Shown here: positions 18,401 to 39,584 of the stretch, piece by piece | Position numbering within the stretch: position 1 is the first letter of the stretch | Layout of the letters: every line of letters begins with the position of its first letter | Source of the DNA: Elusimicrobiota bacterium | GTDB taxonomy: Bacteria > Elusimicrobiota > Elusimicrobia > UBA1565 > UBA9628 | Assembly (NCBI GenBank): GCA_027319565.1 | Contig: DAHVNA010000017.1 | Location: 1-39,584, forward strand | Length of the DNA stretch: 39,584 nt | Reading direction: 5' to 3' | Position numbers and translations under genes: made by a program | Notes under the pieces: model-generated | Database searches by the model: none | What the model was told of the DNA's origin: nothing | The model's input: only the letters and a program-made list of their open reading frames with translations

Positions 18401-21201
18401 ACCATGTCATGATTAAGGCCGTCGGTAATGCTGGGGAAAACGGAGTTAGTGGGATTGTTGGGATCCGGCACGTATCCAAAATCGCCGCCGGTGAAATCTT
18501 GAGAATAAATGACCATCTGGTCCTCGTTAAAGTCTTCGCTGTCTAGAATTCCGTTATTGGCGCCGTATCGCGCCGAAGGAAGTCCCGGGGGAGAGTAAAC
18601 CCAACCGATATCTTCTCCCGGAGCGAGGACGCCGGTGCAGTCTAGGTCCTCGGTTTTGGCGGCGTGATAGATAATGCGCCCGTCCGGGCAGGTGATGGTC
18701 ATTCCACCGGTGCTGTCCATGTCGTCGCTGATGCGTCCCAAATGGAAGTCAAGTTGGTTTCCGGAATTGTCGCCAAGGACGGTGACTTCGAGCATGATAT
18801 CATGCGAAAAATCATTTCCTCCAAGCGAGAACGCGTATCCAAGAGATTCTTCAGTCGAAGCGGGGTCGGAAAAATCATAATTCATCACTAAGACAGGCTG
18901 GGTGTTTTGGGGATTGGCTGGGGCGCTAGGGTTAATTTGAAGGGTTGGAACATATCCTAATGCCCAGGTCATTTTGGTCGGATCGGTGGGCTGTCCTCCG
19001 GGGTTAGAAGCGATGAACCAATCGAGATTGATCATGTTGGCCGCCGTCTGTTGCGCGATTCCCTCCATGTTGTCGACGATGGCGTAGGGGTTTAAGTTCA
19101 TATCTTGTTTGCTTTGCGCCACTTCGGCCGATAGGGAGGTAATCTCGAAGTGCTTTCCAAGGTTTATGTCATGAAGATCGGCATTGGCGTCATAGACCAG
19201 CAAACTCTGGCTGAGATCGGTGACGTTGGGCGTAATGGGAGATTTGGTTCCTGTTTGATAAAGAACGGTCGAACCAAGCTTAAAATGCGGGTTAAAGTGA
19301 TAGGAGGCGCGAGCCCCCAATAAAGCCACGTCTCCGGCGGTGCTTCCTCCCGGCGCTTCGACGTCATAGGTGATGTCGATTTGGGAATTCTGTCCGATTC
19401 TGCCCGGGTTAAAAAATGTCACGAATCCCGCTTGATAGTCGATGAAATAATCGACATTGCGCGTGTATTTGACGTTATCAACCAAGATGATTTCGCTCAT
19501 CGGGGTGATATTGGGCTCTAGTTCAAAGGTGGCGAGATGGTAGCTGTATTCGATGTGGAAAGAGCGTTCCGAAATGGGGTTGGGAGAATAGATTTGAGGA
19601 TCGGGAGTGGCGGAATCAGTCGTTAAGGCAAAGGGCTCGAGCAATTGGAAGTAACCCAGCTGAAATTGGACCTGAATTGTTTGCGGATAAACTTGGGGCG
19701 GGTTTAACGACGGGCCGACCACCTGCTGTTGTTGATTGACGACTTGAAGAACGAAATTTCCCTGTCCGTTGTCGGGCACGATTTGGGTTTGCCCGATGTT
19801 GTAAAAAGTGAGGAGTTCGCGATCGTAGCCCACTTCGGTCATACTCGAGACGATGGGAATATTGGATTGAGTCTTGATGATCTTTGGGGCATTAAAACAG
19901 CCGTTTCCATTGTTGGACGGAGGAGGGGCGTCGATGCAGGGAATCATGCTTGAGCTTGAAGATTCAACGCTGACATTGTTTCCGCTAGCGTCTATGACGC
20001 TGACCGCGAGAACGTCTTGGAGAGCAGCTGGGGTTCTCAGGGTCAATATTCCATGGATATAATCGATGGTGTAGTCTTGCCCCGAGTTAAGCTGTACAAA
20101 TTCCGCCGTCACCGAGGATGTGGTTTGGGCGGCGATATCGTTGACGGTCATCTGCGCGCTGTTGACGTTGACCTGGGATTGATTGAGATTTGCGAGATAA
20201 ATCTGTTCGCTTCCGGCTTTGAGCGGGAGTCTTGCGGGATTTCCGAAGGTGAGATCGTAATAGGTATTTTGGACGTAGGCGGTGTCTAGGATATTAGTCG
20301 TGACGAACTGCGTATTGCCGACAAATTGCTTGGTGTGGGTTAGGCCTTGCGTGCGGCTGCCGATGACGGTGGCTCTAAAACCCTTGTGTTGAACATCGGC
20401 CCTGATGCCAAAGACCTGCTTGTCGTAAGAGACAAACTCGGTGGACGGTAGATTGAGGTTGATATCTCCAAAAGCGACATTTCTGACGGTCGAATTTTTG
20501 TCGCCGGTATAGGTGACATAAATATCCTGGTGTTGATTGGGGCGAGTATCGTCATAATTGACGTTGACGGCGATATGGGGACCCACCTTTCCCTGCATCC
20601 TCAGCTGCATTTGTTGCGTGATGTTGAATGCGGCCGTTGTCTGCGGGCGCCCGGTGATGGCCTGATTTTGAAGGTAACGTTGTTCGTTAAAATTAAATCC
20701 AATGACTTTTCTTCCGGTGACGGAAAGGCTGGTTCCGTAATTTGGAAGAGAAAATTCGGGCGGAGGAGGCTTTGGCGGGCCTTTGATTACGATTCCTTCC
20801 GGATTAAACTGCGGCTCTGGGGGAAGCACGGGGGGCGGGGTTTCTATCGTGTCCCGGGCTTGGATAAATTTTTCTTTTGTGTAGACAAAGGGATGAATAT
20901 TCTCCTCGAATTTGAAGAAATTCGCGGTTTCATTTTCTTCTGTTGAAACGATGGGAATTTCCAAGAGATGATCGGGATCGGGGCGATCTAAAAGCAGAAA
21001 CTTGTGGGACGAAATGAGAAGAAGAAGCGACTTGGGAGGATTAAGCGCCCTTTTTTCTTGTTTCAGTTTTCGATGTTGGGCCTTGGCTTGAGCGGCGAAA
21101 TCGGGGTCATAAGGCATTGAAAACTGGGCATGGAGAAAACGCGGAAGCGCCAGAAGCGAGAGGGCCGCTAATAAATAAAATAAAGTCTTTCGCGTTTTCA
21201 A
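15445..21201 (-). CDS. Very large outer-membrane protein, SprA/Sov (T9SS translocon)-like
   Basis: Signal peptide; SprA-N-like 'QQMQLRMQGKVG..IAVNVNYDD...YTGD...VAFGDINLNLP..EFV..DKQVFGI'; 'EDLD/EDFN' Ca-loop-like motifs; C-terminal amphipathic beta strands ending in Phe. Similarity recognised by eye. Confidence 0.75.
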   Translation of the reverse strand: MKTRKTLFYLLAALSLLALPRFLHAQFSMPYDPDFAAQAKAQHRKLKQEKRALNPPKSLLLLISSHKFLLLDRPDPDHLLEIPIVSTEENETANFFKFEENIHPFVYTKEKFIQARDTIETPPPVLPPEPQFNPEGIVIKGPPKPPPPEFSLPNYGTSLSVTGRKVIGFNFNEQRYLQNQAITGRPQTTAAFNITQQMQLRMQGKVGPHIAVNVNYDDTRPNQHQDIYVTYTGDKNSTVRNVAFGDINLNLPSTEFVSYDKQVFGIRADVQHKGFRATVIGSRTQGLTHTKQFVGNTQFVTTNILDTAYVQNTYYDLTFGNPARLPLKAGSEQIYLANLNQSQVNVNSAQMTVNDIAAQTTSSVTAEFVQLNSGQDYTIDYIHGILTLRTPAALQDVLAVSVIDASGNNVSVESSSSSMIPCIDAPPPSNNGNGCFNAPKIIKTQSNIPIVSSMTEVGYDRELLTFYNIGQTQIVPDNGQGNFVLQVVNQQQQVVGPSLNPPQVYPQTIQVQFQLGYFQLLEPFALTTDSATPDPQIYSPNPISERSFHIEYSYHLATFELEPNITPMSEIILVDNVKYTRNVDYFIDYQAGFVTFFNPGRIGQNSQIDITYDVEAPGGSTAGDVALLGARASYHFNPHFKLGSTVLYQTGTKSPITPNVTDLSQSLLVYDANADLHDINLGKHFEITSLSAEVAQSKQDMNLNPYAIVDNMEGIAQQTAANMINLDWFIASNPGGQPTDPTKMTWALGYVPTLQINPSAPANPQNTQPVLVMNYDFSDPASTEESLGYAFSLGGNDFSHDIMLEVTVLGDNSGNQLDFHLGRISDDMDSTGGMTITCPDGRIIYHAAKTEDLDCTGVLAPGEDIGWVYSPPGLPSARYGANNGILDSEDFNEDQMVIYSQDFTGGDFGYVPDPNNPTNSVFPSITDGLNHDMVNTGINFGSGSSQCQNNSSLCWQTFQIPIHISSATASLWTAIRQLRISVRKNPNCDTANGVTCASKGVIQFAAIAVVGNTWLPGQATDPATNSPPVANESLFAAPINNVQDPKYIPIYNEPGIAGQVFNELYGSVSNLQQQSNTQNVQEQSLELDFSSMTINNFIVPYASAVVTTEEIFANGIDISQHRTFNFLLYGNAQDPNANGTCNDPSADCNDNTFFLRVGNNTNFFEVDVNLNFVGWAEISITQATNSQQIAYNWQSVSITGPPGLVNQPVLVSSGIPSLQQVGEIVAGIRRTNFGPNALPDNTPTSGIVYLDEIYLADPISRIGNADDIKANFLVPGWASFGLETRSVSQNFQTPVTVVSNQSNEQNSAFLNITRLSYLPMTFNVSQQITDTPNETLTGNLSNLVNILQTGKVTTTNGSFQANLNLPNIPHLGFNYTQNNIKYDSLDRTDNTDTYLGTLQYTVPSQSDFLPRNINANGTYSVYKINYGQSTNLAEAESLNAANTVDTTEGGALNLTMTPWKGASFTPNYQLTNVNQQSQGLGGNDVNNGNYMLSRNQTAGFSSNWKLLSWLTPSVNYSINTIENADMTISTFVVTSTPTAGAAPVVLSTVVYQPGQTKAISRMANGSISIPLNFGQIFPKNRLLRTLSIINGYQLQDGDVWNNVATNFNDLGDLWIRSEINPHNVGATLTSLTERDTYNSTQRWEPLSAYNLQGRLSAFRTFSFTNNWVLSRQKNDITGTQSETIETTLPDVVLSMGQLEKLLYTESWMSNTQLDIRYQAHKTNNVGQTINTDSEFQTNIRTLIRNYFDTTITIDDNNSASDNLLVNANTQKTTHQDATIQTSFRWGDFTWTPQTTYTRDVTTMGTGIQTNNTTVITPSVLIRGDLEMPGGLKIPFMHKVLYFVNRLIWTNTLSYAYSQSPVIQANDTRTTSITTNADYTLAKNLRLTLNGSFSMLQNPVLAVNNYMSFQLGSQMIFQF

Positions 21202-27857: not shown

Positions 27858-28906
27858 GCGAGAATTCTCTATATTTGGGGAAAAAGGCCGCCGAAATAGC
27901 GGCTCTGGTGCGTGGGAAATTGGAGGGAGACGGCGATTTGATGATCGCGGGGCTTGATTCTCTGGAAAATGCCGGGCCGTTGGATCTTTCTTTTTTGGGA
28001 AATCCCAAGTATGCCGAGGCCGCGAGAAATTCTCGCGCCGGGTGTTTGCTTTTGCCGAAAGGATCTGAAAATATCTCTTACCAAGCTCCGAGCCGAATTT
28101 ATGTCGAAGATCCGCAATACGCGTTTTCGCAGCTGTTGGTGGAGATTGAATCGCGGTTTCCGAAATCTCCGCCCTTGGTCGATGAAAGAGCCGTCATCCA
28201 TTATGAGGCGCGGTTGGGACCGGAGGTTTCAGTTTCCCCGTTTGTGGTCGTCGAAAGAAAGGCGGTTGTTGGCGAGCGCACGGTCATCGGCCCTCACTGT
28301 TTTATCGGCGCCGGGGCTCGGATAGGACATAGTTGCCGCATCTATCCCAATGTGGTCATCCGTGAAAATTGCGTCATCGGCGACCGCGCGATTATTCATT
28401 CCGGGACCGTGGTTGGTTCCGACGGTTTTGGATTTTCAACGGATAAGAAAACCGGTCAGCATCGAAAAATTCCGCAGTTGGGAAATGTCGTCATTGGAGA
28501 TGATGTCGAAATTGGCGCCAACGTCGCTATCGATCGAGCGACCATCGGCTCGACCGTGATCGGAGATGGAACTAAAATCGACAACTTAGTTCAAATCGCC
28601 CATAACGTCAGGATCGGGAAAAGGTGTCTGATCGTCGGCCAGGTGGGAATCGCGGGTTCGACTCAATTGGGGGACCAGGTGATTTTGGCGGGCCAGGTGG
28701 GAATTGTCGGTCACCTTAAAATCGGAGATGGAGCCACAGTGATGGCTCAGAGCGGAGTGATGAATGACGTTGAAAAGGGGCAAATTCTCTTTGGGTCTCC
28801 GGCTAAGCCGAGAAAAGAAGCGATGAAGCTTTTGGCTCTCTATGGAAGGCTTCCGGAGCTTTTTGAATCCATCAAGAAATTAGCGGGACGCGAATTAATT
28901 GAGTGA
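27854..28906 (+). CDS. lpxD: UDP-3-O-(3-hydroxyacyl)glucosamine N-acyltransferase
   Basis: 'LSFLGNPKY', hexapeptide repeats, 'GSDGFGF', 'KIPQLG', '[12 protein letters not shown]'. Confidence 0.97.
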
Positions 28907-28938
28907 GATAGTATCTCGCTATCTCCCTGGAGATTTTT

Positions 28939-29817
28939 ATGGAAACAATGCAGGCGACGATTAAAAAAGAAATCAGTCTTGAGGGCATCGGCCTTCATAC
29001 CGGAAGCCCGTCGAAACTGACTTTCCGTCCGGCTCCGGCGAACACCGGCATCCGGTTTTTCAGGACCGATTTGCCGGGGCACCCGATGGTTCCGGCGCGC
29101 TTGGATTTTGTCGTTACGACCGTTCGTGGAACCAATCTGGGACTTGGGGAAGCGAAAATACACACTGTCGAGCATGTCCTTTCCGCCTGTACCGGCGCGG
29201 GTATTGATAATATCGATGTCTGGGTTTCCGCCCCCGAGCCCCCGATTATGGACGGTTCGGCTCTTCCGTTTGTGAAGGCGATTTTGACGGCCGGAATTGA
29301 ACATTACCCCGACGCTCCCAAGCGCTGGCTTCATTTGCCGGGGGAAGTCCTTTATCAGGACGGGAAAGCGAAGTACCGGGCTATTCCTTCAGATAATTTT
29401 GAGATTCGAGCGACTTTAATTCACGAGCACCCCTTGATGCCGGAGATGAGCTTGACTCTTGAATTGAACCGCGAGATCTATCTTCGAGAAATCGCTCCGG
29501 CCCGCACTTTTTGTTTTGAACACGAGGTTGAGTTTCTCAAGTCGCAGGGATTGGCCCAGGGCGGATCTCTTGATAACGCGATTGTCATCGGCAAAGACCG
29601 CTATCATACCAATGAGGGCGGTTTGCGCTTTCCAGACGAGTTTGTTCGCCATAAAATGCTAGACTTAATAGGGGATCTAACCTTGATCGGTCGCCCGCTT
29701 TTCAAGATGCGGGTCGAGGCTGAATATCTGGGCCACGCCCACAACGTCGCTTTCGCCAAACTTCTGAGGGAAGCGGCGGTCAAAATGAGAGGCAAAAAAT
29801 CCCTGGAGGCGCATTAA
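28939..29817 (+). CDS. lpxC: UDP-3-O-acyl-N-acetylglucosamine deacetylase
   Basis: 'GIGLHTG', 'TVEHVLSA', 'PIMDGSA', 'ARTF', 'RHKMLDLIGDL', 'GH'. Confidence 0.97.
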   Translation: METMQATIKKEISLEGIGLHTGSPSKLTFRPAPANTGIRFFRTDLPGHPMVPARLDFVVTTVRGTNLGLGEAKIHTVEHVLSACTGAGIDNIDVWVSAPEPPIMDGSALPFVKAILTAGIEHYPDAPKRWLHLPGEVLYQDGKAKYRAIPSDNFEIRATLIHEHPLMPEMSLTLELNREIYLREIAPARTFCFEHEVEFLKSQGLAQGGSLDNAIVIGKDRYHTNEGGLRFPDEFVRHKMLDLIGDLTLIGRPLFKMRVEAEYLGHAHNVAFAKLLREAAVKMRGKKSLEAH

Positions 29818-30287
29818 TGGAAAACGTTCTTGCTTCGCAGCCGGTAATCAGGGTCGTTGATATCAAGGGAATCAAAAAGGCGATTCCCCACCGCTATCCC
29901 TTTCTTTTAGTCGATCGGGTTGAGGTTATCGAAGAAGATAAGCGCGCGGTGGGCACCAAGATGGTGACGATCAATGAACCCTTTTTTCAAGGTCATTTTC
30001 CCGATCATCCAATCATGCCCGGCGTTTTAATCATGGAAGCCTTGGCCCAGGCCGCTTGCGTGATGCTTTTGTCTAAGGGAGGCTATGAAAATAAAATAGC
30101 CTACTTCATGGGGATTGAAGAGGCAAAATTTAGAAATCCCGTTTTCCCCGGGACCGAGCTTAAGCTTCATATTGAAGTTCTTAGGCTTGGCCGGGCCGGT
30201 AAATTTAAGGGAGAAGCTAAAATTGGAGACAAGGTCGCCGCCGAAGGCGTGATGACTTTTGCGGTCGTCGATAAAGAGGTGGCATAA
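29817..30287 (+). CDS. fabZ: 3-hydroxyacyl-ACP dehydratase
   Basis: 'IPHRYPFLLVDR', 'FFQGHFP..PIMPGVLIMEALAQ'. Confidence 0.97.
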   Translation: MENVLASQPVIRVVDIKGIKKAIPHRYPFLLVDRVEVIEEDKRAVGTKMVTINEPFFQGHFPDHPIMPGVLIMEALAQAACVMLLSKGGYENKIAYFMGIEEAKFRNPVFPGTELKLHIEVLRLGRAGKFKGEAKIGDKVAAEGVMTFAVVDKEVA

Positions 30288-31090
30288 TGTCTATTCATTC
30301 AACCGCCGTCATTGATCCCAATGCGCAAATAGATTCTAGCGCCGATATCGGCCCGTACGCGGTCATCGGTCCTCACACCAAGATTGGAGCCGGCTGCATT
30401 GTTGGCTCTCATGCCGTCATCGAAAGAACCCAGATGGGCAAGAATAACCGAATTTTCCCCGGCGCCTATGTCGGCGGGGCGCCCCAAGACCTTAAATTTT
30501 CGGGCGAAGAAACCCTTCTGATCATGGGGGATTCCAATACGGTTCGGGAATGCGTCACCTTAAACCGCGGGACCCATGCCACCGGAAAAACCGTGATTGG
30601 ATCTAATTGTCTCTTCATGGCTTATTCCCATGTCGCTCATGATTGCGTGATCGGAAATCACGTGATTTTCGCCAATTCGGTCGCGATGGCGGGCCATATC
30701 GAGGTGGGAGATTTTACCGTGGTCGGCGGGCTTGCGGCCGCCCATCAACATACCAGAATTGGCCGTTTGTGCATGATTGGGGGGGGCGCGATGATCCCCA
30801 AGGACGTTCCGCCTTTTTGCATGGTCCAGGGAGACCGGGCGACGCTCAAGGGCCTTAATCTTTTAGGGCTTCGCCGCGCCGGGGTTTCTCCCTCGGCGGT
30901 CAAAATGATTAAAGAGGGTTACCGCGTTCTCTTTATGTCCGGCATGCCCTTGGAAGAGGCGCTTTCCCAGGCGGAGTCGATTCGTTGCGCGGAAGTGCGC
31001 GAGATGATCTCTTTTATCCGCTCTTCCAAACGCGGAGTGATTCGACCCGCTCCCCGCGGGGCTCAGCAGGAAGAGGAAGTTGCCGTTTAA
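30287..31090 (+). CDS. lpxA: Acyl-ACP--UDP-N-acetylglucosamine O-acyltransferase
   Basis: 'IHSTAVIDP', 'PQDLKF', 'RECVTLNRGT', 'SHVAHDC', 'HQ', 'GLNLLGLRR'. Confidence 0.97.
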   Translation: MSIHSTAVIDPNAQIDSSADIGPYAVIGPHTKIGAGCIVGSHAVIERTQMGKNNRIFPGAYVGGAPQDLKFSGEETLLIMGDSNTVRECVTLNRGTHATGKTVIGSNCLFMAYSHVAHDCVIGNHVIFANSVAMAGHIEVGDFTVVGGLAAAHQHTRIGRLCMIGGGAMIPKDVPPFCMVQGDRATLKGLNLLGLRRAGVSPSAVKMIKEGYRVLFMSGMPLEEALSQAESIRCAEVREMISFIRSSKRGVIRPAPRGAQQEEEVAV

Positions 31091-31108
31091 AATTAAAAGA
31101 AGGGTGTC

Positions 31109-32623
31109 ATGCCTTCGGTCTTAAAACGCGCCGTTTGCATCCACGGCCATTTCTATCAGCCTCCTCGAGAAAGCCCTTGGACCGGCCGCATTGAACGCCA
31201 AGAATCCGCCGGAGATTATCACGATTGGAATGAGAGAATAGCCGCCGAATGTTATGCCCCCAATATCGAAGCTCGGATTATGGGGCCCAATGGACAAGTT
31301 CTAAAGCGCCTTAACAATTACGGCCTCATCAGTTTTAATTTTGGTCCCACCTTGATGATGTGGCTTGAAAAAGAAAACCCGGCGGCCTACGCCAAAATTA
31401 TCGCCGCCGATCGTGAAAGCTCGCGGCGTCTTAATGGACATGGAAACGCCATCGCCCAAGCCTTTGTCCATCTGATTTTGCCGTTGGCCGACCCTCGCGA
31501 CCAGAGAACGGTTCTCTATTGGGGAATTGCGGATTTTAAACGACGTTTTGGCCGGGAACCGGAAGCCTTGTGGCTGCCGGAAACCGCTTGCGACGATCAG
31601 GTCTTAAGCCTTTTGATTGATTTCAAAATGAAATATCTCATTTTGTCTCCCAGCCAAGCCGAGCGGGTCCGGCCGCTTAAAAACCAAGGGCCCTGGTGGA
31701 ATGTCTCGGACGGTTCTATTGATCCCAAGAAACCCTATCGCTGGTTTGATCCCAAGAGCGCGCGAAAACACTTTATCGACATCTTCTTTTATGACGGGCC
31801 TATTTCGGCTGCGATTTCTTTTGAGAAATTGATGTCTGATGCGAAGGTTTGCGCGGACAGGATTGTTCAAGCTTTTGGCGGGGATGCGGAAGACGGCCTT
31901 GTTTCGATGGCGACCGACGGTGAGATATACGGACATCATCATAAATTCGCGGAGATGGGTTTAGCCTACCTCTTGAGCGAAGAATTGCCGAAAAGAAAAA
32001 TTGAAGTCGTCAATTATGGATATTTTCTGTCCAAGAATCCGCCCTTGTGGGAAGTTCAAATTAAATCCGGACCGCAAGGCTTGGGAACTTCCTGGAGTTG
32101 CTCGCATGGCGTGGGGCGTTGGTTTCTCGATTGCGGCTGCGGCTCGGAGGGAAAAAGCCAAAGATGGAGAACGCCCTTAAGGCAGGCCTTAAACACTCTT
32201 AAATCCCGCCTTGACGAGGTGACCATTGACAAAGGGCAGGGACTATTCAAAGATGTTTGGTTAGCCCGCAATGATTATGGAGAAATACTGAGCGCTCAAG
32301 TCTCTCAGTTGCCGGATTCATTTATCCATCGCCATTTATTGAAAAAATCTGCTTTGGATGTGAAGCGGGCTTTCCAGCTCATGGAAATGCAGAAATTTTC
32401 CCTCTATATGTTCACCAGTTGTGGATGGTTTTTTTCCGATATCGCGGGGCTTGAGGCGGTTCAAAATCTTAAATACGCCCGACGGGCGATAGAGCTGGCT
32501 GAGGAAATCTCAGGCCAAAACCTTGAGCCGGAGTTTTTAGAAATACTGGCCCAAGCTCCGGGCAATGACCCCAAATTCCCTGACGGGTTTGCGGTCTATG
32601 AGGATTTAGCCTCCCGGGGGTAA
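31109..32623 (+). CDS. Glycoside hydrolase family 57 protein (DUF3536-containing)
   Basis: 'IHGHFYQPPRE.PW', 'HDWNERI..ECY', 'WLPETA', 'ATDGEIYGHH', 'SWSCSHGVGRW', 'MFTSCGWFF'. Confidence 0.92.
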   Translation: MPSVLKRAVCIHGHFYQPPRESPWTGRIERQESAGDYHDWNERIAAECYAPNIEARIMGPNGQVLKRLNNYGLISFNFGPTLMMWLEKENPAAYAKIIAADRESSRRLNGHGNAIAQAFVHLILPLADPRDQRTVLYWGIADFKRRFGREPEALWLPETACDDQVLSLLIDFKMKYLILSPSQAERVRPLKNQGPWWNVSDGSIDPKKPYRWFDPKSARKHFIDIFFYDGPISAAISFEKLMSDAKVCADRIVQAFGGDAEDGLVSMATDGEIYGHHHKFAEMGLAYLLSEELPKRKIEVVNYGYFLSKNPPLWEVQIKSGPQGLGTSWSCSHGVGRWFLDCGCGSEGKSQRWRTPLRQALNTLKSRLDEVTIDKGQGLFKDVWLARNDYGEILSAQVSQLPDSFIHRHLLKKSALDVKRAFQLMEMQKFSLYMFTSCGWFFSDIAGLEAVQNLKYARRAIELAEEISGQNLEPEFLEILAQAPGNDPKFPDGFAVYEDLASRG

Positions 32624-32860
32624 GGTCGACTGGTTAGCCATGGACTGCGGCTCGCATTGTCCGCCTTGTCCGGGAACGGGAACATATCCTTGAGGACAAT
32701 TAGTCGCCGGATATCCGCACCCGGCCGATTGACCGGCGCCGGGGCCGCCCGAGGCTCCCATGGCTCCGCCACCCATTCCTCCGCTTCCGCAGCCAAAGAC
32801 TCCCGAGAGAACCATTCCAACCGTTGCGGTGATTACGGCGTAAGAAATTCGTTTGACCAT
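32606..32860 (-). CDS. Small Gly-rich, Cys-containing lipoprotein
   Basis: GGAGG SD, near-consensus promoter upstream, n/h-region and lipobox 'VFGC'. Confidence 0.7.
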   Translation of the reverse strand: MVKRISYAVITATVGMVLSGVFGCGSGGMGGGAMGASGGPGAGQSAGCGYPATNCPQGYVPVPGQGGQCEPQSMANQSTLPPGG

Positions 32861-32877
32861 AAAATCCTCCCAACCCT

Positions 32878-32906
32878 AGTGTAAGCCCCGGAATGCCGTT
32901 TGTCAA
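32878..32906 (-). promoter_or_regulatory. Sigma70 promoter for the small lipoprotein
   Basis: TTGACA-N17-TACACT. Confidence 0.75.
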
Positions 32907-32979
32907 GAACAGGGCGGGTTTTTTACCAATTTTTTACGAATGGGGGCCTGTCCCTATTTTCTTTAAATCCCTTTAAATT

Positions 32980-33063
32980 TGCGCGAGGAGGGATTTGAAC
33001 CCTCAAGGCCTTGCGGCCACACGGTCCTGAGCCGTGCGCGTCTGCCAGTTCCGCCACCCGCGC
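32980..33063 (-). tRNA. tRNA-Leu (CAG)
   Basis: GCGCGGG/CTCGCGC acceptor stem, anticodon arm CACGG-CTCAGGA-CCGTG, long variable arm, GTTCAAATC T loop. CCA not encoded. Confidence 0.97.
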
Positions 33064-33087
33064 GTGAGTCTATTTTACAAAATGATT

Positions 33088-33846
33088 CTAATTATCGAGG
33101 CGGAAAATCATTTGTTGGGCGATTTTAACGGCGATAGGCCCCTGTGCGTTTCGGGCGGGAGAAAATTTCATCAGCCGCGCCACTTGTTTGGCCGCTTCGT
33201 TAAAATCGGCGGCGGCGGGTTTAAGAATATCGACCCCGGTGACCTGTCCGTCAATTCCGATATGGATGGCGACTAAAACGCTCGCTTCTTGGCCTTTTTC
33301 TCTTTCCGCTTTTGGGTAGAACCTCTCAAGATTTTTAAGCACCTCGTTTAGATTTAAAAGTTTTGGCGGAATAATTCCTGCGGGAGAACCGCCGTTGCCG
33401 GTTCCCGTGGGAGAGCCGTAATTAGCGCCCTTTCCGGAGCCCCCAGCGAGCGGAGAGGTCCCGGTTCCCGTTTTGGTTCCTCCCGGGGTGCTTGGTTTTT
33501 GGGGCGGAAGGGGAATGGTCTTTTGAGTATTTTTAGTGGGAAGAGTCCAAGTCTTGGGAGTAGGCGGCGGCGTTTTCGGCGGCGGGGTTTTAGGCGCCAC
33601 TTGAGCTGGAAGCGGGGAGGCTTTGATGACCTGTCGTTTAGGGGCGCCTAGTTTTTTAGGGCCGGTTCCAATAACGGGATTAGTCAAATCGACTTCGATG
33701 GGAGAATTTGAATTTTTTTTGAAATGGAAGTTAAGGCTTAAAGCGAGCAGCAGGGCGTGAAGGGCCGCGGACAATAATAGGCATTGCGGCCAGCTGAGCG
33801 TCGGAATTTTTTTAGGGGGGGCCTGGGGCTTAAGTTTTTGATTCAC
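33088..33846 (-). CDS. tonB: TonB family energy transducer
   Basis: TM 'LLSAALHALLL' (S..H motif), Pro/Lys-rich spacer, C-terminal 'YPKAEREKGQE...FNEAA...FSPA'. Confidence 0.9.
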   Translation of the reverse strand: MNQKLKPQAPPKKIPTLSWPQCLLLSAALHALLLALSLNFHFKKNSNSPIEVDLTNPVIGTGPKKLGAPKRQVIKASPLPAQVAPKTPPPKTPPPTPKTWTLPTKNTQKTIPLPPQKPSTPGGTKTGTGTSPLAGGSGKGANYGSPTGTGNGGSPAGIIPPKLLNLNEVLKNLERFYPKAEREKGQEASVLVAIHIGIDGQVTGVDILKPAAADFNEAAKQVARLMKFSPARNAQGPIAVKIAQQMIFRLDN

Positions 33847-34244
33847 AGGCTTTTAACTTCAAGCCCTATTTTGTGGATTCCAGAACCGCGAATGAGATCT
33901 AAAAGAGACACGATTTTTCCGTAGGCGACTGTTTTGTCGGCCGCGAGAGTGACGCGGGTATCTGGATTTAACTCCACCATCTGGGTGAGGGTTTGAACGA
34001 GTTGGGCGGAAGTAACGGGTTTTCCGGAAAAATAAATTTGGGTTTTTGAATCCATCGAGATTTCAAGGGCCTTGGTGGCCGTGTGAGAATGGTGCGCGGC
34101 CTTGGGGACATCGATTTTAATAGTTCGATGGGCGATCATGGGGGCGGTGACCATGAAGATAATCAGCAAAACCAAGACCACGTCCACCAGCGGAGTGATA
34201 TTGATTCCGGTCATGGGGCCGGAGGTTTTTCCGGGAACTTGCAT
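33843..34244 (-). CDS. exbD: Biopolymer transporter ExbD/TolR
   Basis: 'INITPLVDVVLVLLIIFMVTAP', 'ADKTVAYG'. Confidence 0.93.
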   Translation of the reverse strand: MQVPGKTSGPMTGINITPLVDVVLVLLIIFMVTAPMIAHRTIKIDVPKAAHHSHTATKALEISMDSKTQIYFSGKPVTSAQLVQTLTQMVELNPDTRVTLAADKTVAYGKIVSLLDLIRGSGIHKIGLEVKSL

Positions 34245-34248
34245 GTCC

Positions 34249-34836
34249 TTATTCGGAACGCGATCGGATCGAAACGATTAACGACTCGGTTCCGGAGAGA
34301 ATTTTCTGAACCTTGTCTTGAAAATAGTTATAGCTGATGACGCAGGGAATGGCGACAAACAGCCCGATAGCGGTGGTGACCAGGGCTTCGGAGAGGCCTT
34401 TCATGACGACTTCGGGTCCGGCCCCGCTTTGAGATAAATCATGAAAGGCTTTGATGACGCCTAAGACCGTTCCCAAAAGCCCGATAAAGGGGGCGTTCGA
34501 TCCCAGAGTTCCTAAAATAAGCAGTCTTTTTTCAAGGAGATTTTTTTCGGGCCAGCTTTTGGCCGCGAAGAGTTCGCTGCTAAACGGGTTTTTTCTGGAG
34601 CGATCGGTCAAGGCTTCGGCCAATAATCGGCTGGAGGAACCGTCGAATTGGGAAAGATCAATTTTTTCGTTTCCCGCTAGTAAAGCGTTTTGGAGCCCAA
34701 GAAATGCGGCTTCTTCTCTTTTGAGAAATAGTCCGCGTTCAATAATGACCGCCAAGGCCAGAATGGAACAGGCAATCAGCGCCCAGATGATCCAATCTCC
34801 GCCGCTAAAAGCGAGGGCTTTTAAAATTGCGAGCAT
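34249..34836 (-). CDS. exbB: MotA/TolQ/ExbB proton channel
   Basis: 'GTLGSNAPFIGLLGTVLG', 'GLSEALVTTAIGLFVAIP'. Confidence 0.93.
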   Translation of the reverse strand: MLAILKALAFSGGDWIIWALIACSILALAVIIERGLFLKREEAAFLGLQNALLAGNEKIDLSQFDGSSSRLLAEALTDRSRKNPFSSELFAAKSWPEKNLLEKRLLILGTLGSNAPFIGLLGTVLGVIKAFHDLSQSGAGPEVVMKGLSEALVTTAIGLFVAIPCVISYNYFQDKVQKILSGTESLIVSIRSRSE

Positions 34837-34853
34837 ATCATTTCGTTAGAACC

Positions 34854-35723
34854 CTAAGGCTTTCTGTATTTTTCCATTTTCAGCAGAGCCCAGCACAGTT
34901 CTGCTTGAACGGAGGGGTTGGTCTCGGTGTAAAGTTGCGGTTGGATGAGGGAAAAAACGTCGTTGTGTCCCATCTCCCCGAGATAATGAGTGGCAAAGGC
35001 GCGGGTAAACCAATCCATATCCTGATAGTGGTGGAGAAGGGTTTCGCGTCCAAAGGTATTTCCTAATTCCCAGGCCAGGTGCGAGGCATAGAGCTTGACC
35101 GCGAGAGAGGGGTCCACTTGTGCAGCGGTATAAATAATAGAGCTGATGTTGGAATCGGGTTGGCCATTGGCCATGATGTAAAGCGCTTCCATGGCGGTAA
35201 AGCGCACCGTGACATTGGTGTTTTGGAGCGCAGATTGGAAAAGCGGGATAAACTGCTGGTCATGCGTATAGGCTAAGGCGTCAAGGGCAAGAGCCTGGAT
35301 CTGCACGTTGGTCCCGGTCTGAATAATGGTCTGGAGGGAATTTTGAAGCGTGAGGTCTTTAGTTCCCGCCAGCCCTTCGGTGAGAAGAAAGCCCAGTTCG
35401 GTGTAGCGGGTTTGAAGGTTATAGCCGTCCAAGGTGGTCAGATTGGCCAAATTGGTCAAGGAAGGGTCCAATTGTTCTTGGGCGTTGGGCCTCAGATTGG
35501 GTAGTTGAAGAAGGCGCAGCAAGTTCGCGTTGATTTGGGGATCCAAAACGGCGTTGGGGGGCAATTTGAGCCTCGGGGCCGTGATGATGAGGGGTTCAAG
35601 CTCAAGAATGGGAGCTGCGGCCTCGGGCGAGGATGCCGCCGGTGGCGTCGCGGGCGAAGGCGCGTTCTGAGCGCGAACGCTTCTCGCTAGAAAGAGTGCG
35701 CAAACAAAAATTATTTTTTTCAT
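34854..35723 (-). CDS. Secreted HEAT-repeat protein
   Basis: Signal 'MKK...SVRA'; HEAT-like 'VQIQALALDALA', 'VTVRFTAMEAL', 'WFTRAFATHYLG'. Paralogous to 35720-36631. Confidence 0.8.
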   Translation of the reverse strand: MKKIIFVCALFLARSVRAQNAPSPATPPAASSPEAAAPILELEPLIITAPRLKLPPNAVLDPQINANLLRLLQLPNLRPNAQEQLDPSLTNLANLTTLDGYNLQTRYTELGFLLTEGLAGTKDLTLQNSLQTIIQTGTNVQIQALALDALAYTHDQQFIPLFQSALQNTNVTVRFTAMEALYIMANGQPDSNISSIIYTAAQVDPSLAVKLYASHLAWELGNTFGRETLLHHYQDMDWFTRAFATHYLGEMGHNDVFSLIQPQLYTETNPSVQAELCWALLKMEKYRKP

Positions 35724-36631
35724 TGACTGGCCATCTTTTTAGGAAATAGTTTAATGGCGGCGATGCAGTCTTCCGCAACGACAAAATTATATTGCTGCTC
35801 TTGATTGATCCGGTTGACTAGTCGATCGTAATCGCTGGCGTCGCCGTAATCTCCTAAATATTGCGCGGCCATCGCGCGGACAACCCAACTAGGATTATTC
35901 AAAAAAGAACGGAGCATCGGAACGCCGCTGGGATCTCCCAGGCGCGCTAAAAGCCCGGTGGCGTAAACGTTGAGAATTGGGATTCCTTCTCTGTTGGGAT
36001 CGGTTTCGCTCTTTAATAAAGGAATGGCGTGTTGCGGATGGCCCCAAACCGCCAGCGCTTCCATCGCTCCAAAGCGTACCCCGGAATGGAAATAGAGAAG
36101 AGCTTCTTTAAATACGGGCTCATCGGCGAGATTATGCTGATTGGCCAAAATAATCAAGGCCTCCGAGCGAACTTCGTAATTGGTGCTCCAACGCGCCATG
36201 GTGACAAGTTCTTTTCGAATGCGTGGATTACCTGTATCAACCGATAAGGCCTCGGTGATGGGAATTCCGATATGGGTATAGTGGTTTCTGAGGCGAAATC
36301 CCGTTGGGGTTCCAATGCTGATGATGTCCCCAAGCGGAGTGCCGCTGGTGTTATTGAGGGTCACGGTCTCTTGATTGAGATTGTCGAAAAGATTGACGAG
36401 GGTGCTGGTAATTAAGGGATCGGTTTGCGCGGTTTGGGTGGAACTGACCACGGCGGGCGTTGCCCCAGGTTGCGCCGCTTGTCCGGCGCCTGCGGCTCCG
36501 GGCGTTCCAGGTTGGGGAACGCAGGAAGAAAGAGCGAGTACCGCTAAAGATAAGATGGCGAGGGACAGGATCGAACTGTCGACACCTGGTTTTTCAGACC
36601 AGTGCTCTACCACTGAGCTACCTCGCCTCAT
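35720..36631 (-). CDS. HEAT-repeat lipoprotein whose N-terminal coding region contains tRNA-Phe
   Basis: Lipobox 'LSSC' at codon 37; HEAT-like 'EVRSEALIIL', 'GVRFGAMEAL', 'WVVRAMAAQYLG'; stop overlaps the next ATG. The only canonical starts before the lipobox are ATG 36631 and GTG 36613 (inside the tRNA). Confidence 0.8.
   Translation of the reverse strand: MRRGSSVVEHWSEKPGVDSSILSLAILSLAVLALSSCVPQPGTPGAAGAGQAAQPGATPAVVSSTQTAQTDPLITSTLVNLFDNLNQETVTLNNTSGTPLGDIISIGTPTGFRLRNHYTHIGIPITEALSVDTGNPRIRKELVTMARWSTNYEVRSEALIILANQHNLADEPVFKEALLYFHSGVRFGAMEALAVWGHPQHAIPLLKSETDPNREGIPILNVYATGLLARLGDPSGVPMLRSFLNNPSWVVRAMAAQYLGDYGDASDYDRLVNRINQEQQYNFVVAEDCIAAIKLFPKKMASQ
36556..36627 (-). tRNA. tRNA-Phe (GAA)
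   Basis: GGCGAGG/CCTCGCC-A acceptor; D arm GCTC-AGTGGTA-GAGC; anticodon arm CTGGT-CTGAAAA-ACCAG; T arm GACAG-TTCGATC-CTGTC. CCA not encoded. Confidence 0.97.
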
Positions 36632-36763
36632 ATCCTTGATTCTACAATACTTTCCAACGCTTTGCGATTTCTTTAACGGAAAAAATGTTTTTGGGGTAGG
36701 TTGGCATGGCTATTGCTTGATATTGTCGCGCTAGTGTAGTGAGTTGGATACCATTTTAGATTC

Positions 36764-36825
36764 GTCGCCCCGGCGAAAGCCGGGGTCCAGACATATTCAT
36801 AGATTCCAACTTTCGTCGGAATGAC
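36764..36825. repeat. 62-bp REP-like palindromic element, copy 2
   Basis: GTCGCCCCGGC-GAAA-GCCGGGGTCCA...TAGATTCCAAC-TTTC-GTCGGAATGAC, matching 9834-9895. Confidence 0.85.
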
Positions 36826-36926
36826 AACGAGTCAAATGTAAAGAAGCATTGGGATCGCTACTCTCGCCTAGACGAGCGGTATAAGTTCCAGCGAGAGTTT
36901 CCGCAGTTCATTATACCCGCCAAAAT

Positions 36927-36966
36927 TAGGTCCTTTGCCGGAAGCGATATGGGACTTTAGACCCAT
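36927..36966 (+). promoter_or_regulatory. Two-box palindromic upstream motif
   Basis: TAGGTCCTTTGCCGGA-N7-TGGGACTTTAGACCCAT, ending 34 nt before ATG 37001. Near-identical boxes at 39524-39563. Confidence 0.75.
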
Positions 36967-37000
36967 GCGCTTGAGCTGAGATATCGGCATAATAAGGGAC

Positions 37001-39490
37001 ATGAAAAATCAAAAAATGTTTTTGAGCTCTCTCTTATCTTTGTCCTTGTCTCTTTCTTCTTTAAGTCCCGCCTTCGCCGGAATGAACGTCGAAAATGAGG
37101 TTCCCAGAGGACCGGAAAATGTTTCGCCAATGGCGCTCGCCCCTTTTGATTTTTCAGTTCAAAATATTCCAGAACTCTCGGGAGGCCAATCAGAATTATC
37201 AGGATTAAAAGAAAAGTCTCTTCCCAGTTTGGAGTCTCGGGCGGTTTTGCTCCCGTCCAAAATTTCTCGGGTTCAAACTCAAGAAATTTCTCCCGCTGTC
37301 GTTCAAAAGCGGGGCCAAGGGCTTTTAAAACCAACGCGCTTTTCCGCGATTTTGAGGCATTTGAAGAAGATTTTGGGTCGCGGGGTTTTTCAAAACTCCA
37401 ATCAACCCATCGAAAAGATTAATTTTGACGGCCAATCCGCTTTTTCAAGCGCGTCTCTAGGCGTTCGACAGAAACCCTGGCAGAACGAGAAAACTCCGCC
37501 TTCTCTTGATCGCCGTTTTTTGCTTGAGCCCCCCAACAATGGAATTGTCTCTCTTAAAGAATTTCACCTTTCCGCCAATTCCGCTTCCCCGCAGGGCGAA
37601 CAACCGCTGACTCTCAACGCCGATCCTTCGGACATGGCTTCAATTGAAAAGGCTTTGCGGCAGGAAGTGGACTCTAACCCGGAGAAATACGGGCTTTCAA
37701 ATCAATATGGAACTCCGAATCTGCAGATGGCGACGGTTCATGTCGTTAAACTTTCGGGACAAGCCGATCAGGCCGACAGCATCATCGCGGTTTTTAGACA
37801 ATGGCAAAAAGGGGTAGACCGAGACGGCTCTCCTTATTATCTTTTGGTTGACGGCGCAGACCTGCGCTTTCATATGAAGGTTTTAAACGGCAAGCCGATT
37901 GTGATGGGAATCGAAGGCGGGTTTACCCCGGGAATCGACCCGGCCATCATGAAACCGGGTTATGACGATAGTCAGCTTGAAGAGATTGCCCTCAAACAAT
38001 TGTCTTCGGGGCCGTCCAACGGCGGAAATTCGGCGGACAACGTGATTCGCCCAAAGGTGCCGGGACATTTCAATTTGGGAAACGCGACTCCGCAAGTGGT
38101 TTTGATGGCGCGGGAAATCGTTTATCTTTCGGGAGCCTGGAGAGCGGTTAATATTTATCAAGGCAATTCCCTTTCCGGAGGACAAAAAATTATTCTCGTC
38201 GATGTTAAAACCGGAGAAGCCTTTCCGTTGGGAGCGGACGGAATTCTTAGTCGCTATCGCGCTGCCGCGGAAAATTCCGTTTCCGGGACGGCCCTGGGGC
38301 GCGGAACCTTGTTGACCGATGACGGGCAGGACCATGGCCCGATTGGAGAAATGCCGTTACCCAACGCCAAGATTTTCGATTCTCAGGGGCGCGTGATTAC
38401 GGTGACCGATGAGAACGGCAATTTTACGATTCCCGCCGGCGTTAATGACGGGAAGCCGATGCCGATTGTCGTGCGCCTAGACGGGATTTACGGTCCGGTG
38501 ATCGATGATGATTCCTCTGACTCCCCTCTAGTCGCCAATTTAACCGTCAAACCGGGAGAAACCGTTCGCGTGACCGTCAACCCTGACGGGGATAACGAGC
38601 AAAGCGCGGCCAGCGTCAACGCCTATGTTTATTCTTATCGCCTCTTTAATTGGTTTAAGTCTTATCTCGGGCTTTCCGATCCCCGCTTTTACGTTCCCTT
38701 GGCGGGTTCGATTCATACAAACGGGACCAGTCTTCCGGGAAACGCCGATTATGACCCCATGACCGACGGTTTTTATTTAATGAAACGGGCGACGCTACCT
38801 GAGAAAATTCGCGGCAAGGATGGACAAATTAAGACCGTGATGGTCACCTTTGAAAACACCTCGCAACCTTCCATCTCTCTTCATGAACTGGGACATCGTT
38901 TTGTCCAAAGAGCTTCCCAGCTCAATTTAACCGATGAGCAATTGAACTCTCCATCATATCGTTTCGTTAAAAATCCGATTAGCCCCGTGATGGGCTCGGG
39001 CTCTAACGAGGCGACGGCCGACACCATTTCCATGTTTATGAGAAATAGCCCGGTCATTGGAAACGGTTTTATCTTAAATCCTCTGCCTGGAATGCCGGCC
39101 ATCATCCGAACCGGAGAGAATAAGACCGCTTATGATTCTAAAAATCCTGACCCTCACAATCAGGGGGAAACCCAGATGGGGACGGCCTGGATGAGCCGCA
39201 AGGATATCATGGTCGCGATGGGAGAAGCGGAAGGCGCTTTCCGCTCGGCTTTGATTTTTGTCCTGGCGCAACTCTATGCCCAGCCCGAAGATCCCGTCAG
39301 CGCCTTGACCCACGCCCTTTTGGCCGATATGTCTAAAGATGGAAATACTCCGCATGAGGCCATCATCCGCTCCCATGCAAAAAACGATCACGGCCTTGAT
39401 CTTCCGGCTTCTCCGTCTTTTCCCTCAAGCCAAAATCTTGCCTCGAAAAATTCCCCCGAGACTTCTCCGGCGGGGAAAACCGTTCGGTAA
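37001..39490 (+). CDS. Secreted zinc metallopeptidase, thermolysin/fungalysin (M4/M36)-like
   Basis: Signal ending in 'PAFA'; PepSY-like 'LVDVKTGE'; 'HELGH' (HExxH), third ligand in 'NEATAD', and 'DPHNQG'. Confidence 0.8.
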   Translation: MKNQKMFLSSLLSLSLSLSSLSPAFAGMNVENEVPRGPENVSPMALAPFDFSVQNIPELSGGQSELSGLKEKSLPSLESRAVLLPSKISRVQTQEISPAVVQKRGQGLLKPTRFSAILRHLKKILGRGVFQNSNQPIEKINFDGQSAFSSASLGVRQKPWQNEKTPPSLDRRFLLEPPNNGIVSLKEFHLSANSASPQGEQPLTLNADPSDMASIEKALRQEVDSNPEKYGLSNQYGTPNLQMATVHVVKLSGQADQADSIIAVFRQWQKGVDRDGSPYYLLVDGADLRFHMKVLNGKPIVMGIEGGFTPGIDPAIMKPGYDDSQLEEIALKQLSSGPSNGGNSADNVIRPKVPGHFNLGNATPQVVLMAREIVYLSGAWRAVNIYQGNSLSGGQKIILVDVKTGEAFPLGADGILSRYRAAAENSVSGTALGRGTLLTDDGQDHGPIGEMPLPNAKIFDSQGRVITVTDENGNFTIPAGVNDGKPMPIVVRLDGIYGPVIDDDSSDSPLVANLTVKPGETVRVTVNPDGDNEQSAASVNAYVYSYRLFNWFKSYLGLSDPRFYVPLAGSIHTNGTSLPGNADYDPMTDGFYLMKRATLPEKIRGKDGQIKTVMVTFENTSQPSISLHELGHRFVQRASQLNLTDEQLNSPSYRFVKNPISPVMGSGSNEATADTISMFMRNSPVIGNGFILNPLPGMPAIIRTGENKTAYDSKNPDPHNQGETQMGTAWMSRKDIMVAMGEAEGAFRSALIFVLAQLYAQPEDPVSALTHALLADMSKDGNTPHEAIIRSHAKNDHGLDLPASPSFPSSQNLASKNSPETSPAGKTVR

Positions 39491-39523
39491 GCGAGAGAAC
39501 TCATGAGACAAGCGCTTTCAATC

Positions 39524-39563
39524 TGGGTCCTTTGCCGGACCAGGCCTAGGACTTTAGACCCAT
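39524..39563 (+). promoter_or_regulatory. Two-box palindromic upstream motif (probably for the next gene, beyond the window)
   Basis: TGGGTCCTTTGCCGGA-N7-TAGGACTTTAGACCCAT. Confidence 0.7.
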
Positions 39564-39584
39564 ACGGATTTTTAAATAAGGGAA

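What the first reader, a model, noticed from the sequence alone, without database searches (positions are those of the whole stretch)
35720..36644. Intact tRNA-Phe encoded in frame, on the same strand, inside a lipoprotein's signal-peptide coding region
Seen: a perfect tRNA-Phe(GAA) cloverleaf (36627-36556) starts 4 nt into an ORF beginning at ATG 36631. The frame reads through all 72 nt without a stop (MRRGSSVVEHWSEKPGVDSSILSLA) and continues into ILSLAVLALSS-C (lipobox) and a HEAT-repeat body. The T arm and acceptor stem supply hydrophobic residues ('ILSLA', repeated straight after at protein level with different codons). No ATG/GTG/TTG lies between the tRNA 3' end and the lipobox Cys. A TAGAAT -10 box sits 7 nt before the ATG. 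Known: pre-tRNAs are cut by RNase P and 3' nucleases. Inference: one transcript may be either a leaderless mRNA or a pre-tRNA with a 4-nt leader, so tRNA maturation would decapitate the first gene of the HEAT-HEAT-exbB-exbD-tonB operon. This would be a dual-coding tRNA/mRNA switch.
Basis: partly seen in the sequence, partly recalled or inferred. Interest (0 to 1): 0.88.

Follow-up and report, generated by a model that had tools for sequence, protein, structure and literature searches.

The report
Working tRNA inside a protein gene
In a group of uncultured Elusimicrobiota bacteria, the only phenylalanine tRNA gene found lies wholly inside the reading frame of a conserved lipoprotein gene, so the same 72 bases very probably serve both as a tRNA and as codons of the protein's export signal; this overlap has not yet been tested in cells.

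Summary
Real, and not an assembly accident. The only tRNA-Phe found in this Elusimicrobiota genome (36627-36556) lies in frame inside the signal-peptide region of a HEAT-repeat lipoprotein gene. The layout recurs in 6 of 6 genomes of the genus and in a 65%-identical metagenomic homologue; these form one clade (100/100), and no outgroup locus examined has it. The tRNA is invariant while synonymous sites next to it differ about 50%. The 12 codons right after it evolve as protein (pN/pS about 0.14) and hold no shared canonical start. An in-frame ATG sits upstream in 7 of 7 loci, at two different offsets. Orthologues are leaderless genes (-10 box 5-8 nt before the start in 27 of 37), as here. Best reading (about 0.75): one transcript is either translated through the tRNA or cut by RNase P and a 3' nuclease into tRNA, with a timing window before the acceptor stem closes. 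No RNA or protein data exist. A regulated switch is not shown (about 0.15). Ten literature searches listed no precedent; this scan earlier noted a similar, unproven phage case on other DNA.

The parts
36639..36644 (-). -10-like box TAGAAT, 7 nt before the ATG and 11 nt before the tRNA; inferred shared promoter
   Evidence: Sequence; same hexamer and spacing in L168 with a different spacer; genome-wide peak of such boxes 6-7 nt before in-frame ATGs. Function inferred.
36629..36631 (-). ATG, probable leaderless start of the lipoprotein gene
   Evidence: In frame 4 nt before the tRNA in G000, G003, G005, L168 and 13 nt before it in G001, G002, G004.
36556..36627 (-). tRNA-Phe(GAA), 72 nt, no encoded CCA; also holds 23 whole codons and parts of two more (residues 2-26)
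   Evidence: invariant in 7 of 7 loci; one copy found per genome in G000-G005.
36611..36613 (-). In-frame GTG (Val7) in the D-loop, with GAGGT 6 nt upstream; possible second start
   Evidence: Sequence; database proteins P0007 and P0025 were called from it.
36521..36556 (-). Hydrophobic and lipobox part of the signal peptide (Ile26 to Cys37); its first base is the tRNA discriminator
   Evidence: pS 0.486, pN 0.066 in six genus genomes; one extra codon in L168; Cys invariant in 11 of 11 aligned proteins.
35720..36631 (-). HEAT-repeat lipoprotein 1 (303 aa)
   Evidence: PF13646; found in 71 of 77 other family genomes; all-helical model, nearest folds alphaRep/HEAT, none at E<=0.001.
34854..35723 (-). 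HEAT-repeat paralogue 2; its ATG overlaps the stop of gene 1 (ATGA)
   Evidence: ATGA overlap also in L061-L065 and L168; fused to gene 1 in several outgroups.
34249..34836 (-). exbB/tolQ-type gene
   Evidence: PF01618
33843..34244 (-). exbD/tolR-type gene
   Evidence: PF02472
33088..33846 (-). tonB-type gene
   Evidence: PF03544
32980..33063 (-). tRNA-Leu(CAG) 24 nt after tonB; does not overlap a gene

Best explanation
A working tRNA-Phe gene became lodged, in frame, in the 5' end of a leaderless lipoprotein gene in the ancestor of one Elusimicrobiota clade, and both functions have been kept. SHOWN by sequence comparison: the tRNA is under RNA-level constraint; the codons directly after it are under protein-level constraint; an in-frame ATG upstream is kept. 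INFERRED: (1) one promoter starts the transcript at or next to the ATG; (2) a ribosome that loads before about 75-80 nt are made, when the acceptor stem closes over the start region, reads through the tRNA and makes a prolipoprotein with a 36-39 residue signal peptide, whose tRNA-coded part gives the basic N-terminus (RR), a polar spacer and the first third of the hydrophobic core, all removed at Cys by Lgt/LspA; (3) otherwise, or after a round of translation, RNase P removes the short leader and a 3' cut (probably RNase E/G-type plus trimming and CCA addition) frees the tRNA and leaves gene 1 without a start. The split is most likely a fixed kinetic partition that holds the lipoprotein low, tolerated because the signal peptide is discarded.
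For: Layout in 6 of 6 genus genomes and L168 at 65% identity; one clade, 100/100. tRNA pS 0 and pN 0 against pS 0.55-0.60 in the body; 23 of 23 degenerate tRNA codons invariant against 25 of 143 amino-acid-invariant body codons. Post-tRNA h/c region pN/pS 0.066/0.486. ATG in frame in 7 of 7 at two offsets; in G001/G002/G004 the -10 to ATG gap is 17, 15, 16 nt while ATG to tRNA stays 13 nt; outgroup rate 4 of 83. Downstream length change is a whole codon. Orthologues: -10-like box 5-8 nt before the start in 27 of 37 genomes, control windows 1-9 of 37. Genome: 68 and 36 boxes at 6 and 7 nt against 5-22 at other distances. Orthologue signal peptides are 15-22 aa, with K/R in 26 of 27; a start after the tRNA would give 11-12 aa with no charge. 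Start region is ordinarily open at 30 nt (rank 149 of 288) and among the most closed at 90 nt (rank 14 of 288). RNase P RNA and protein, RNase E/G, Lgt, LspA present.
Against: No transcript, ribosome or peptide data were available. Start-site accessibility is critical for leaderless initiation in Caulobacter reporters (10.1101/2020.05.06.081141, passages), and the finished cloverleaf hides this start. Transcription starts favour purine then pyrimidine, so AUG at a 5' end arises more often than by chance (PMC9094748, passages). The two ATG offsets are only two independent states; among order-level outgroups 4 of 24 have such an ATG, and L057 has one plus 605 open nt. Two of 10 tRNA-bearing homologues (P0007, P0025) were called from the internal GTG, and their DNA could not be seen. 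P0025 has Met at the discriminator codon. The signal peptide has net charge 0 to +1 and is about twice the family length. The tRNA sequence shows no adaptation to coding: it is identical in G006 and G014, where it is free-standing.
Confidence: 0.75

Rival explanations
1. Translation starts at the codon that begins on the tRNA discriminator (ATC/ATT/ATA, ATG in one homologue), so the overlap is one base and the upstream ATG is incidental.
For: The codon is ATN in all 7 DNA loci and Met in P0025. In G000, 4 of 45 tRNAs have the start of a long ORF only 6-7 nt past their 3' end, so starts close to tRNA ends exist here.
Against: The third base drifts freely (ATC x3, ATT x3, ATA x1), as for an ordinary hydrophobic codon whose A is fixed by the tRNA. 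The product would have an 11-12 residue uncharged signal, outside the family range of 15-22 with K/R. A 3' cut after the discriminator removes the A of that codon, and an intact acceptor stem abuts it (inference). It leaves the 7 of 7 upstream ATGs unexplained.
Confidence: 0.08
2. Translation starts at the GTG in the D-loop using the GAGGT of the acceptor stem as ribosome-binding site, perhaps after RNase P has cut. Still dual coding, for about three quarters of the tRNA.
For: GAGGT lies 6 nt before the in-frame GTG, near the genome's 6-8 nt SD peak; gene callers chose it for P0007 and P0025.
Against: Both elements are generic tRNA sequence, present in free-standing copies, and are paired in the folded RNA. 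The peptide would lose its N-terminal arginines (net -2). It does not explain the kept upstream ATG.
Confidence: 0.08
3. Regulated switch: the cell tunes the choice between tRNA maturation and translation, coupling the ExbBD-TonB operon to RNase P activity or translation state. This sits on top of the best explanation and does not replace it.
For: The two fates exclude each other on a given molecule at a given time; gene 2 overlaps gene 1 by ATGA in all loci checked, so coupling could pass the effect on; the start closes when the tRNA folds.
Against: No alternative structure: acceptor-stem pairing probability 0.68-1.00 in all 7 loci at three lengths. No Phe codon in the frame up to Cys. Orthologues run the same operon with no tRNA, and G001/G002/G004 changed leader type. 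No expression data.
Confidence: 0.15
4. Artefact or dead gene: the assembler joined a shared tRNA node to the gene, or the gene's 5' end is decayed and untranslated.
For: Unitigs break at the tRNA because co-occurring relatives share it; none of the listed pieces bridges the 3' junction by 31 nt on both sides (79 pieces not shown).
Against: Seven loci with diverged flanks on both sides; the exact 303-aa protein is on 5 contigs; five unitigs carry 22-26 nt of the tRNA 3' end on the gene, and one 173-nt unitig of a relative covers the tRNA, 51 nt upstream and 17 nt downstream; purifying selection up to the tRNA edge.
Confidence: 0.03

Closest known systems
tRNA-mRNA co-transcripts cut by RNase P, e.g. 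E. coli secG leuU (PMC2241853; abstract and section headings seen)
   Same: One transcript holds an mRNA and a pre-tRNA; RNase P separates them, and a section heading states that this leads to rapid decay of secG mRNA.
   Different: There the tRNA lies outside the reading frame. Here it lies between the start codon and the rest of the gene, so maturation cuts the frame itself.
Archaeal C/D box sRNA genes overlapping ORFs in Pyrobaculum (PMC6009581; passages seen)
   Same: A structured non-coding RNA gene overlaps a protein gene, including sense overlap at the 5' end, with likely co-transcription.
   Different: [quoted passage not shown] Here a whole tRNA is internal, sense, and keeps full RNA constraint.
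Rickettsia palindromic elements inserted in frame (PMC10969869; passages seen)
   Same: A folded DNA/RNA element lands in frame in a gene and is translated as part of the protein.
   Different: RPEs are multi-copy mobile repeats with no essential RNA product. This insert is the single tRNA-Phe found and must be cut out to work.
tmRNA (recalled, no call)
   Same: One RNA has tRNA-like and coding roles.
   Different: tmRNA keeps the two roles in separate domains, has no anticodon arm or start codon, and uses both in one reaction. Here the same bases do both, in different fates of the transcript.
Integrases whose attP lies in the int gene and that integrate in tRNA genes, such as SSV1 and Mx8 (recalled, no call)
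   Same: Part of a tRNA sequence is read as protein.
   Different: Only the att part of the tRNA overlaps, and it follows from integration. No integrase gene is among the ORFs of 28000-39584 annotated here, and the host gene is a conserved lipoprotein.

Membership tests
Functional bacterial tRNA-Phe | Full cloverleaf with GAA anticodon | tested here: met
   (73.6 bits, model 1-71/71)
Functional bacterial tRNA-Phe | RNA-level constraint and no other copy in the genome | tested here: met
   0 changes in 72 nt over 7 loci; one copy found in each of G000-G005, which are 71-97% complete
Functional bacterial tRNA-Phe | Mature, charged RNA in cells | not testable with these tools
   No RNA holder listed
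Sec/SPII lipoprotein | Hydrophobic core followed by lipobox Cys; Lgt and LspA in the genome | tested here: met
   Residues 21-36 hydrophobic, Cys37; Cys invariant. Lipobox consensus recalled; no SignalP run.
Sec/SPII lipoprotein | Short, basic n-region | tested here: inconclusive
   RR at the N-terminus but about 20 residues and net charge 0 to +1, against 15-22 residue signals in orthologues
Leaderless mRNA | -10 box 5-8 nt before an AUG/GUG start | tested here: met
   G000, G003, G005, L168; 27 of 37 orthologues. G001, G002, G004 have a short leader instead.
Leaderless mRNA | Unstructured start region | tested here: not met
   Not met once the tRNA is complete (rank 14 of 288 at 90 nt); ordinary at 30 nt (149 of 288)
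Leaderless mRNA | Mapped transcription start on the start codon | not testable with these tools
   No RNA data
RNase P-separated tRNA-mRNA co-transcript (secG leuU type) | tRNA lies outside the reading frame | tested here: not met
In-frame mobile palindromic repeat (RPE type) | Multi-copy repeat with no essential RNA product | tested here: not met
   One match per genome; canonical tRNA
Riboswitch/attenuator-like RNA switch | Two competing folds or sensing codons | tested here: not met
   Acceptor stem 0.68-1.00 in all loci; no Phe codon before Cys37. Equilibrium folding only.

The most novel reading that the evidence does not exclude
The cell's only tRNA-Phe is routinely translated as part of an envelope protein's signal peptide, and the race between ribosome loading and tRNA folding and processing is used to tie output of the HEAT-HEAT-ExbBD-TonB operon to the supply of free ribosomes or RNase P: a pre-tRNA acting as its own translational control element.
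Probability: 0.15. Interest if true: 0.95.

Novelty: categorically new. Interest (0 to 1): 0.82.

Why it matters
tRNA genes and protein frames on one strand are normally treated as exclusive, and two database gene calls of this family appear cut short at the 5' end (P0012 begins at the h-region, P0006 in the body; the cause is my inference). A conserved case in which a whole, apparently essential tRNA is also coding shows that signal peptides can absorb a full tRNA, and suggests that such overlaps are hidden by annotation rules. It also gives a natural construct to test two open points: how fast a ribosome must load on a leaderless transcript before structure closes over the start, and whether an RNA can be translated first and matured to tRNA afterwards.

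Tried and rejected
Expression: no RNA holder listed, so only DNA contigs could be laid. A decayed tRNA in the long N-terminus of G021: rejected; G021, G084 and G085 have TACAAT-6 nt-GTG starts and two have stops just upstream. ARAGORN at a lowered threshold gave noise and was not used. ILSLA repeat as a conserved feature or target-site duplication: not conserved in L168, P0004, P0007, P0025; the 15-nt likeness in the genus remains unexplained. Downstream GTG at +104 nt as start: not conserved and upstream codons are under selection. Twin-arginine signal: RRGSS does not fit the recalled Tat consensus; not tested further. A second tRNA-Phe in G001-G005: a 7-nt pattern was too short to use; a longer one gave one true tRNA each plus 5 other matches against 3 in the control. 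Other tRNAs of G000 inside long frames: none with an upstream start and a long frame in the part that was shown (output cut in the middle). Search of 1.84 billion representatives with residues 1-45: 17 hits; the 8 read look like spurious translations of tRNA loci. Shorter homologues: none. RNase Z below cut-off, RNase J and RNase Y not found in the incomplete genome. The fold search named no function. No complex was predicted, since no binding claim is made. Literature: ten searches, listings only, showed no paper on a whole tRNA inside a sense reading frame; the library lacks most subscription journals and no supplements were read.

Full report
1. Observation. On the minus strand the window reads TAGAAT (36644-36639), 7 nt, ATG (36631), one more A, then tRNA-Phe(GAA) 36627-36556. 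Rfam matches the whole tRNA model at 73.6 bits. The ORF 36631-35720 runs through all 72 nt into a hydrophobic stretch, Cys37 and HEAT_2 repeats, followed by a second HEAT gene, exbB, exbD and tonB. ARAGORN finds no other tRNA-Phe in the genome (2.03 Mb, 91.65% complete). Close named relatives are titled Elusimicrobia (2 of the 5 full-length hits; the other 3 are titled 'bacterium'). Those five loci show the same flanks as genus genomes and are not counted separately.

2. Spread. The gene has a match in 38 of 41 genomes of the order sample and 72 of 78 of the family. Of the 30 loci returned, the 6 of the genus carry the tRNA in the same frame and the other 24 carry no tRNA within about 1.5 kb; 8 longer outgroup regions carry none. 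Of 17 metagenome loci, the closest (L168, 65% identity) carries it and 16 do not. Protein searches add P0004, P0007 and P0025 with the tRNA-coded peptide. In a tree of 57 protein bodies these form one clade of 11 rows at 100/100; 10 have the peptide and P0006 is called from inside the body, so its state is unknown (midpoint root, no one-clade test run). Each of G000-G005 has one match to the tRNA, always here. In other genera tRNA-Phe lies elsewhere, in varied contexts. One origin in the clade ancestor is the simplest reading.

3. The tRNA is a working tRNA (inference from constraint). Over 7 loci it has no change at all, while the body has pS 0.60. Of 143 body codons with an invariant, degenerate amino acid only 25 are invariant in DNA; in the tRNA 23 of 23 are. 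Protein constraint alone cannot give that.

4. The codons after the tRNA are translated (inference from constraint). From the discriminator to Cys, pS is 0.486 and pN 0.066 in the genus, near the body's 0.552 and 0.047; L168 has one more codon, in frame. In deeper homologues the residues change but stay hydrophobic. So the start is at or before the discriminator.

5. Which start. An in-frame ATG with no stop lies 4 nt before the tRNA in G000, G003, G005 and L168, and 13 nt before it in G001, G002 and G004, where the -4 codon is not ATG and the -10 box lies further up. In those three the -10 to ATG gap is 17, 15 and 16 nt, but ATG to tRNA is always 13 nt, and a purine-rich tetramer (AAGA, GAGA, AGGA) sits 7 nt before the ATG, the genome's commonest SD distance. 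Among 83 distinct outgroup tRNA-Phe upstream regions 4 have such an ATG (4 of 24 in the order-level subset); kin are not independent, and the clade shows two states, not seven events. The orthologues are leaderless-type genes: a TANNNT box lies 5-8 nt before the start in 27 of 37 genomes, against 1-9 of 37 in six control windows. In G000 a strict -10 box peaks 6-7 nt before in-frame ATGs (68 and 36; 5-22 elsewhere; 4 and 6 for out-of-frame ATGs). The window's gene keeps that architecture with the tRNA placed after ATG-A. The two rival starts are the D-loop GTG and the ATN codon on the discriminator. The ATN codon is ATC, ATT or ATA in the 7 loci and Met in P0025; a free third base fits a hydrophobic sense codon better than a start, and the peptide would be 11-12 residues with no charge, where orthologue signals are 15-22 residues with K/R in 26 of 27. 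P0007 and P0025 were called from the GTG; their DNA could not be seen, which leaves open whether they have the upstream ATG.

6. Mechanism. Predicted folding keeps the acceptor stem (0.68-1.00) in all loci; the minimum-energy fold of the unmodified interior is not the cloverleaf but lies within 2-4 kcal/mol of it. The first 15 nt are as open as those of other leaderless candidates when 30 nt exist (149 of 288) and among the most closed at 90 nt (14 of 288). Accessibility governs leaderless initiation in Caulobacter reporters (10.1101/2020.05.06.081141, passages). So a ribosome probably has to load while the tRNA is still being transcribed; late transcripts fold and are cut. RNase P RNA and protein and an RNase E/G are present; RNase Z scored below cut-off and RNase J and Y were not found. 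The tRNA has no encoded CCA. A translated transcript could refold and be matured afterwards, so the fates need not exclude each other over an RNA's life. All of this paragraph is inference. Gene 2 overlaps gene 1 by ATGA in G000, L061-L065 and L168 and is fused to it in several outgroups, so it may share gene 1's limit. The protein's own job is unknown; its link to ExbBD-TonB is conserved and the model is an alphaRep-like helical repeat with no match at E<=0.001.

7. Against. There is no RNA, ribosome or peptide evidence. AUG at a transcript's first base is favoured by start-site base preference (PMC9094748, passages). This frame of tRNA-Phe is open by nature, and in L040 and L044 it runs in frame into a downstream gene that has its own ATG; L057 has an upstream ATG and 605 open nt. 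The tRNA is identical to free-standing copies in G006 and G014. Unitigs break at the tRNA; five reach 22-26 nt into it from the gene side and one spans it with short flanks. The exact protein is on 5 contigs.

8. Switch. Nothing found points to regulation: no competing fold, no Phe codons before Cys, a changed leader type in three species, and the same operon without tRNA in all outgroups checked. I rate it about 0.15.

9. Known systems. Closest are RNase P-separated co-transcripts such as secG leuU (PMC2241853, abstract and headings), sRNA-ORF overlaps in Pyrobaculum (PMC6009581, passages) and in-frame RPE repeats (PMC10969869, passages); tmRNA and att-in-int integrases are recalled. Each differs in a defining feature. 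Ten searches (listings only) showed no whole tRNA inside a sense frame; this does not prove absence from print. The scan's notes held nothing by sequence or place and one similar unproven phage case by words (e1-6054038), which I did not test.

10. Verdict. Observation confirmed; dual coding about 0.75 from the upstream ATG and about 0.83 counting the internal GTG; regulated switch about 0.15. Interest 0.82.

Noticed in passing
G000 contigs C27, C29, C34, C42; also L040, L044, L050: Four of 45 tRNAs in the genome (Leu-TAA, Arg-TCT, Leu-GAG, Met) have the ATG/GTG of a long same-strand ORF only 6-7 nt past their 3' end, with an A/T-rich gap and no SD; three outgroup tRNA-Phe genes show 7-8 nt. 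These mRNAs may get their 5' ends from tRNA 3' processing.
   Followed up: partly
L040 (G007) and L044 (G020): The same frame of tRNA-Phe runs without a stop into a downstream secreted-type gene that has its own ATG 8 nt after the discriminator, with an in-frame GTG or TTG 19 nt upstream of the tRNA: a possible precursor state of such fusions.
   Followed up: partly
window 36760-36830: Palindromic repeat upstream of the promoter with about 10-15 similar copies in the genome.
   Followed up: no
window 32980-33063: tRNA-Leu(CAG) 24 nt after tonB with its own -10-like box; also near the operon in L061-L065, while 8 outgroup regions hold no tRNA.
   Followed up: partly
window 37001-39490: Divergent 829-aa ORF with an N-terminal hydrophobic stretch and only a weak Pfam hit; conserved next to the locus in the genus with a second long ORF behind it.
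   Followed up: no
G000 C43 (about 18618-18692) and C56 (63102-63175): Two ARAGORN 'tRNA-Val(GAC)' calls with unusual, expanded anticodon loops, beside a normal Val(GAC) on C58.
   Followed up: no
P0012, P0006: JGI-sourced calls of this gene start inside the h-region or the body, unlike ENA/NCBI calls that read through the tRNA.
   Followed up: no
L011 (G023:C5): One TGA inside the match to the HEAT gene 1 orthologue.
   Followed up: no
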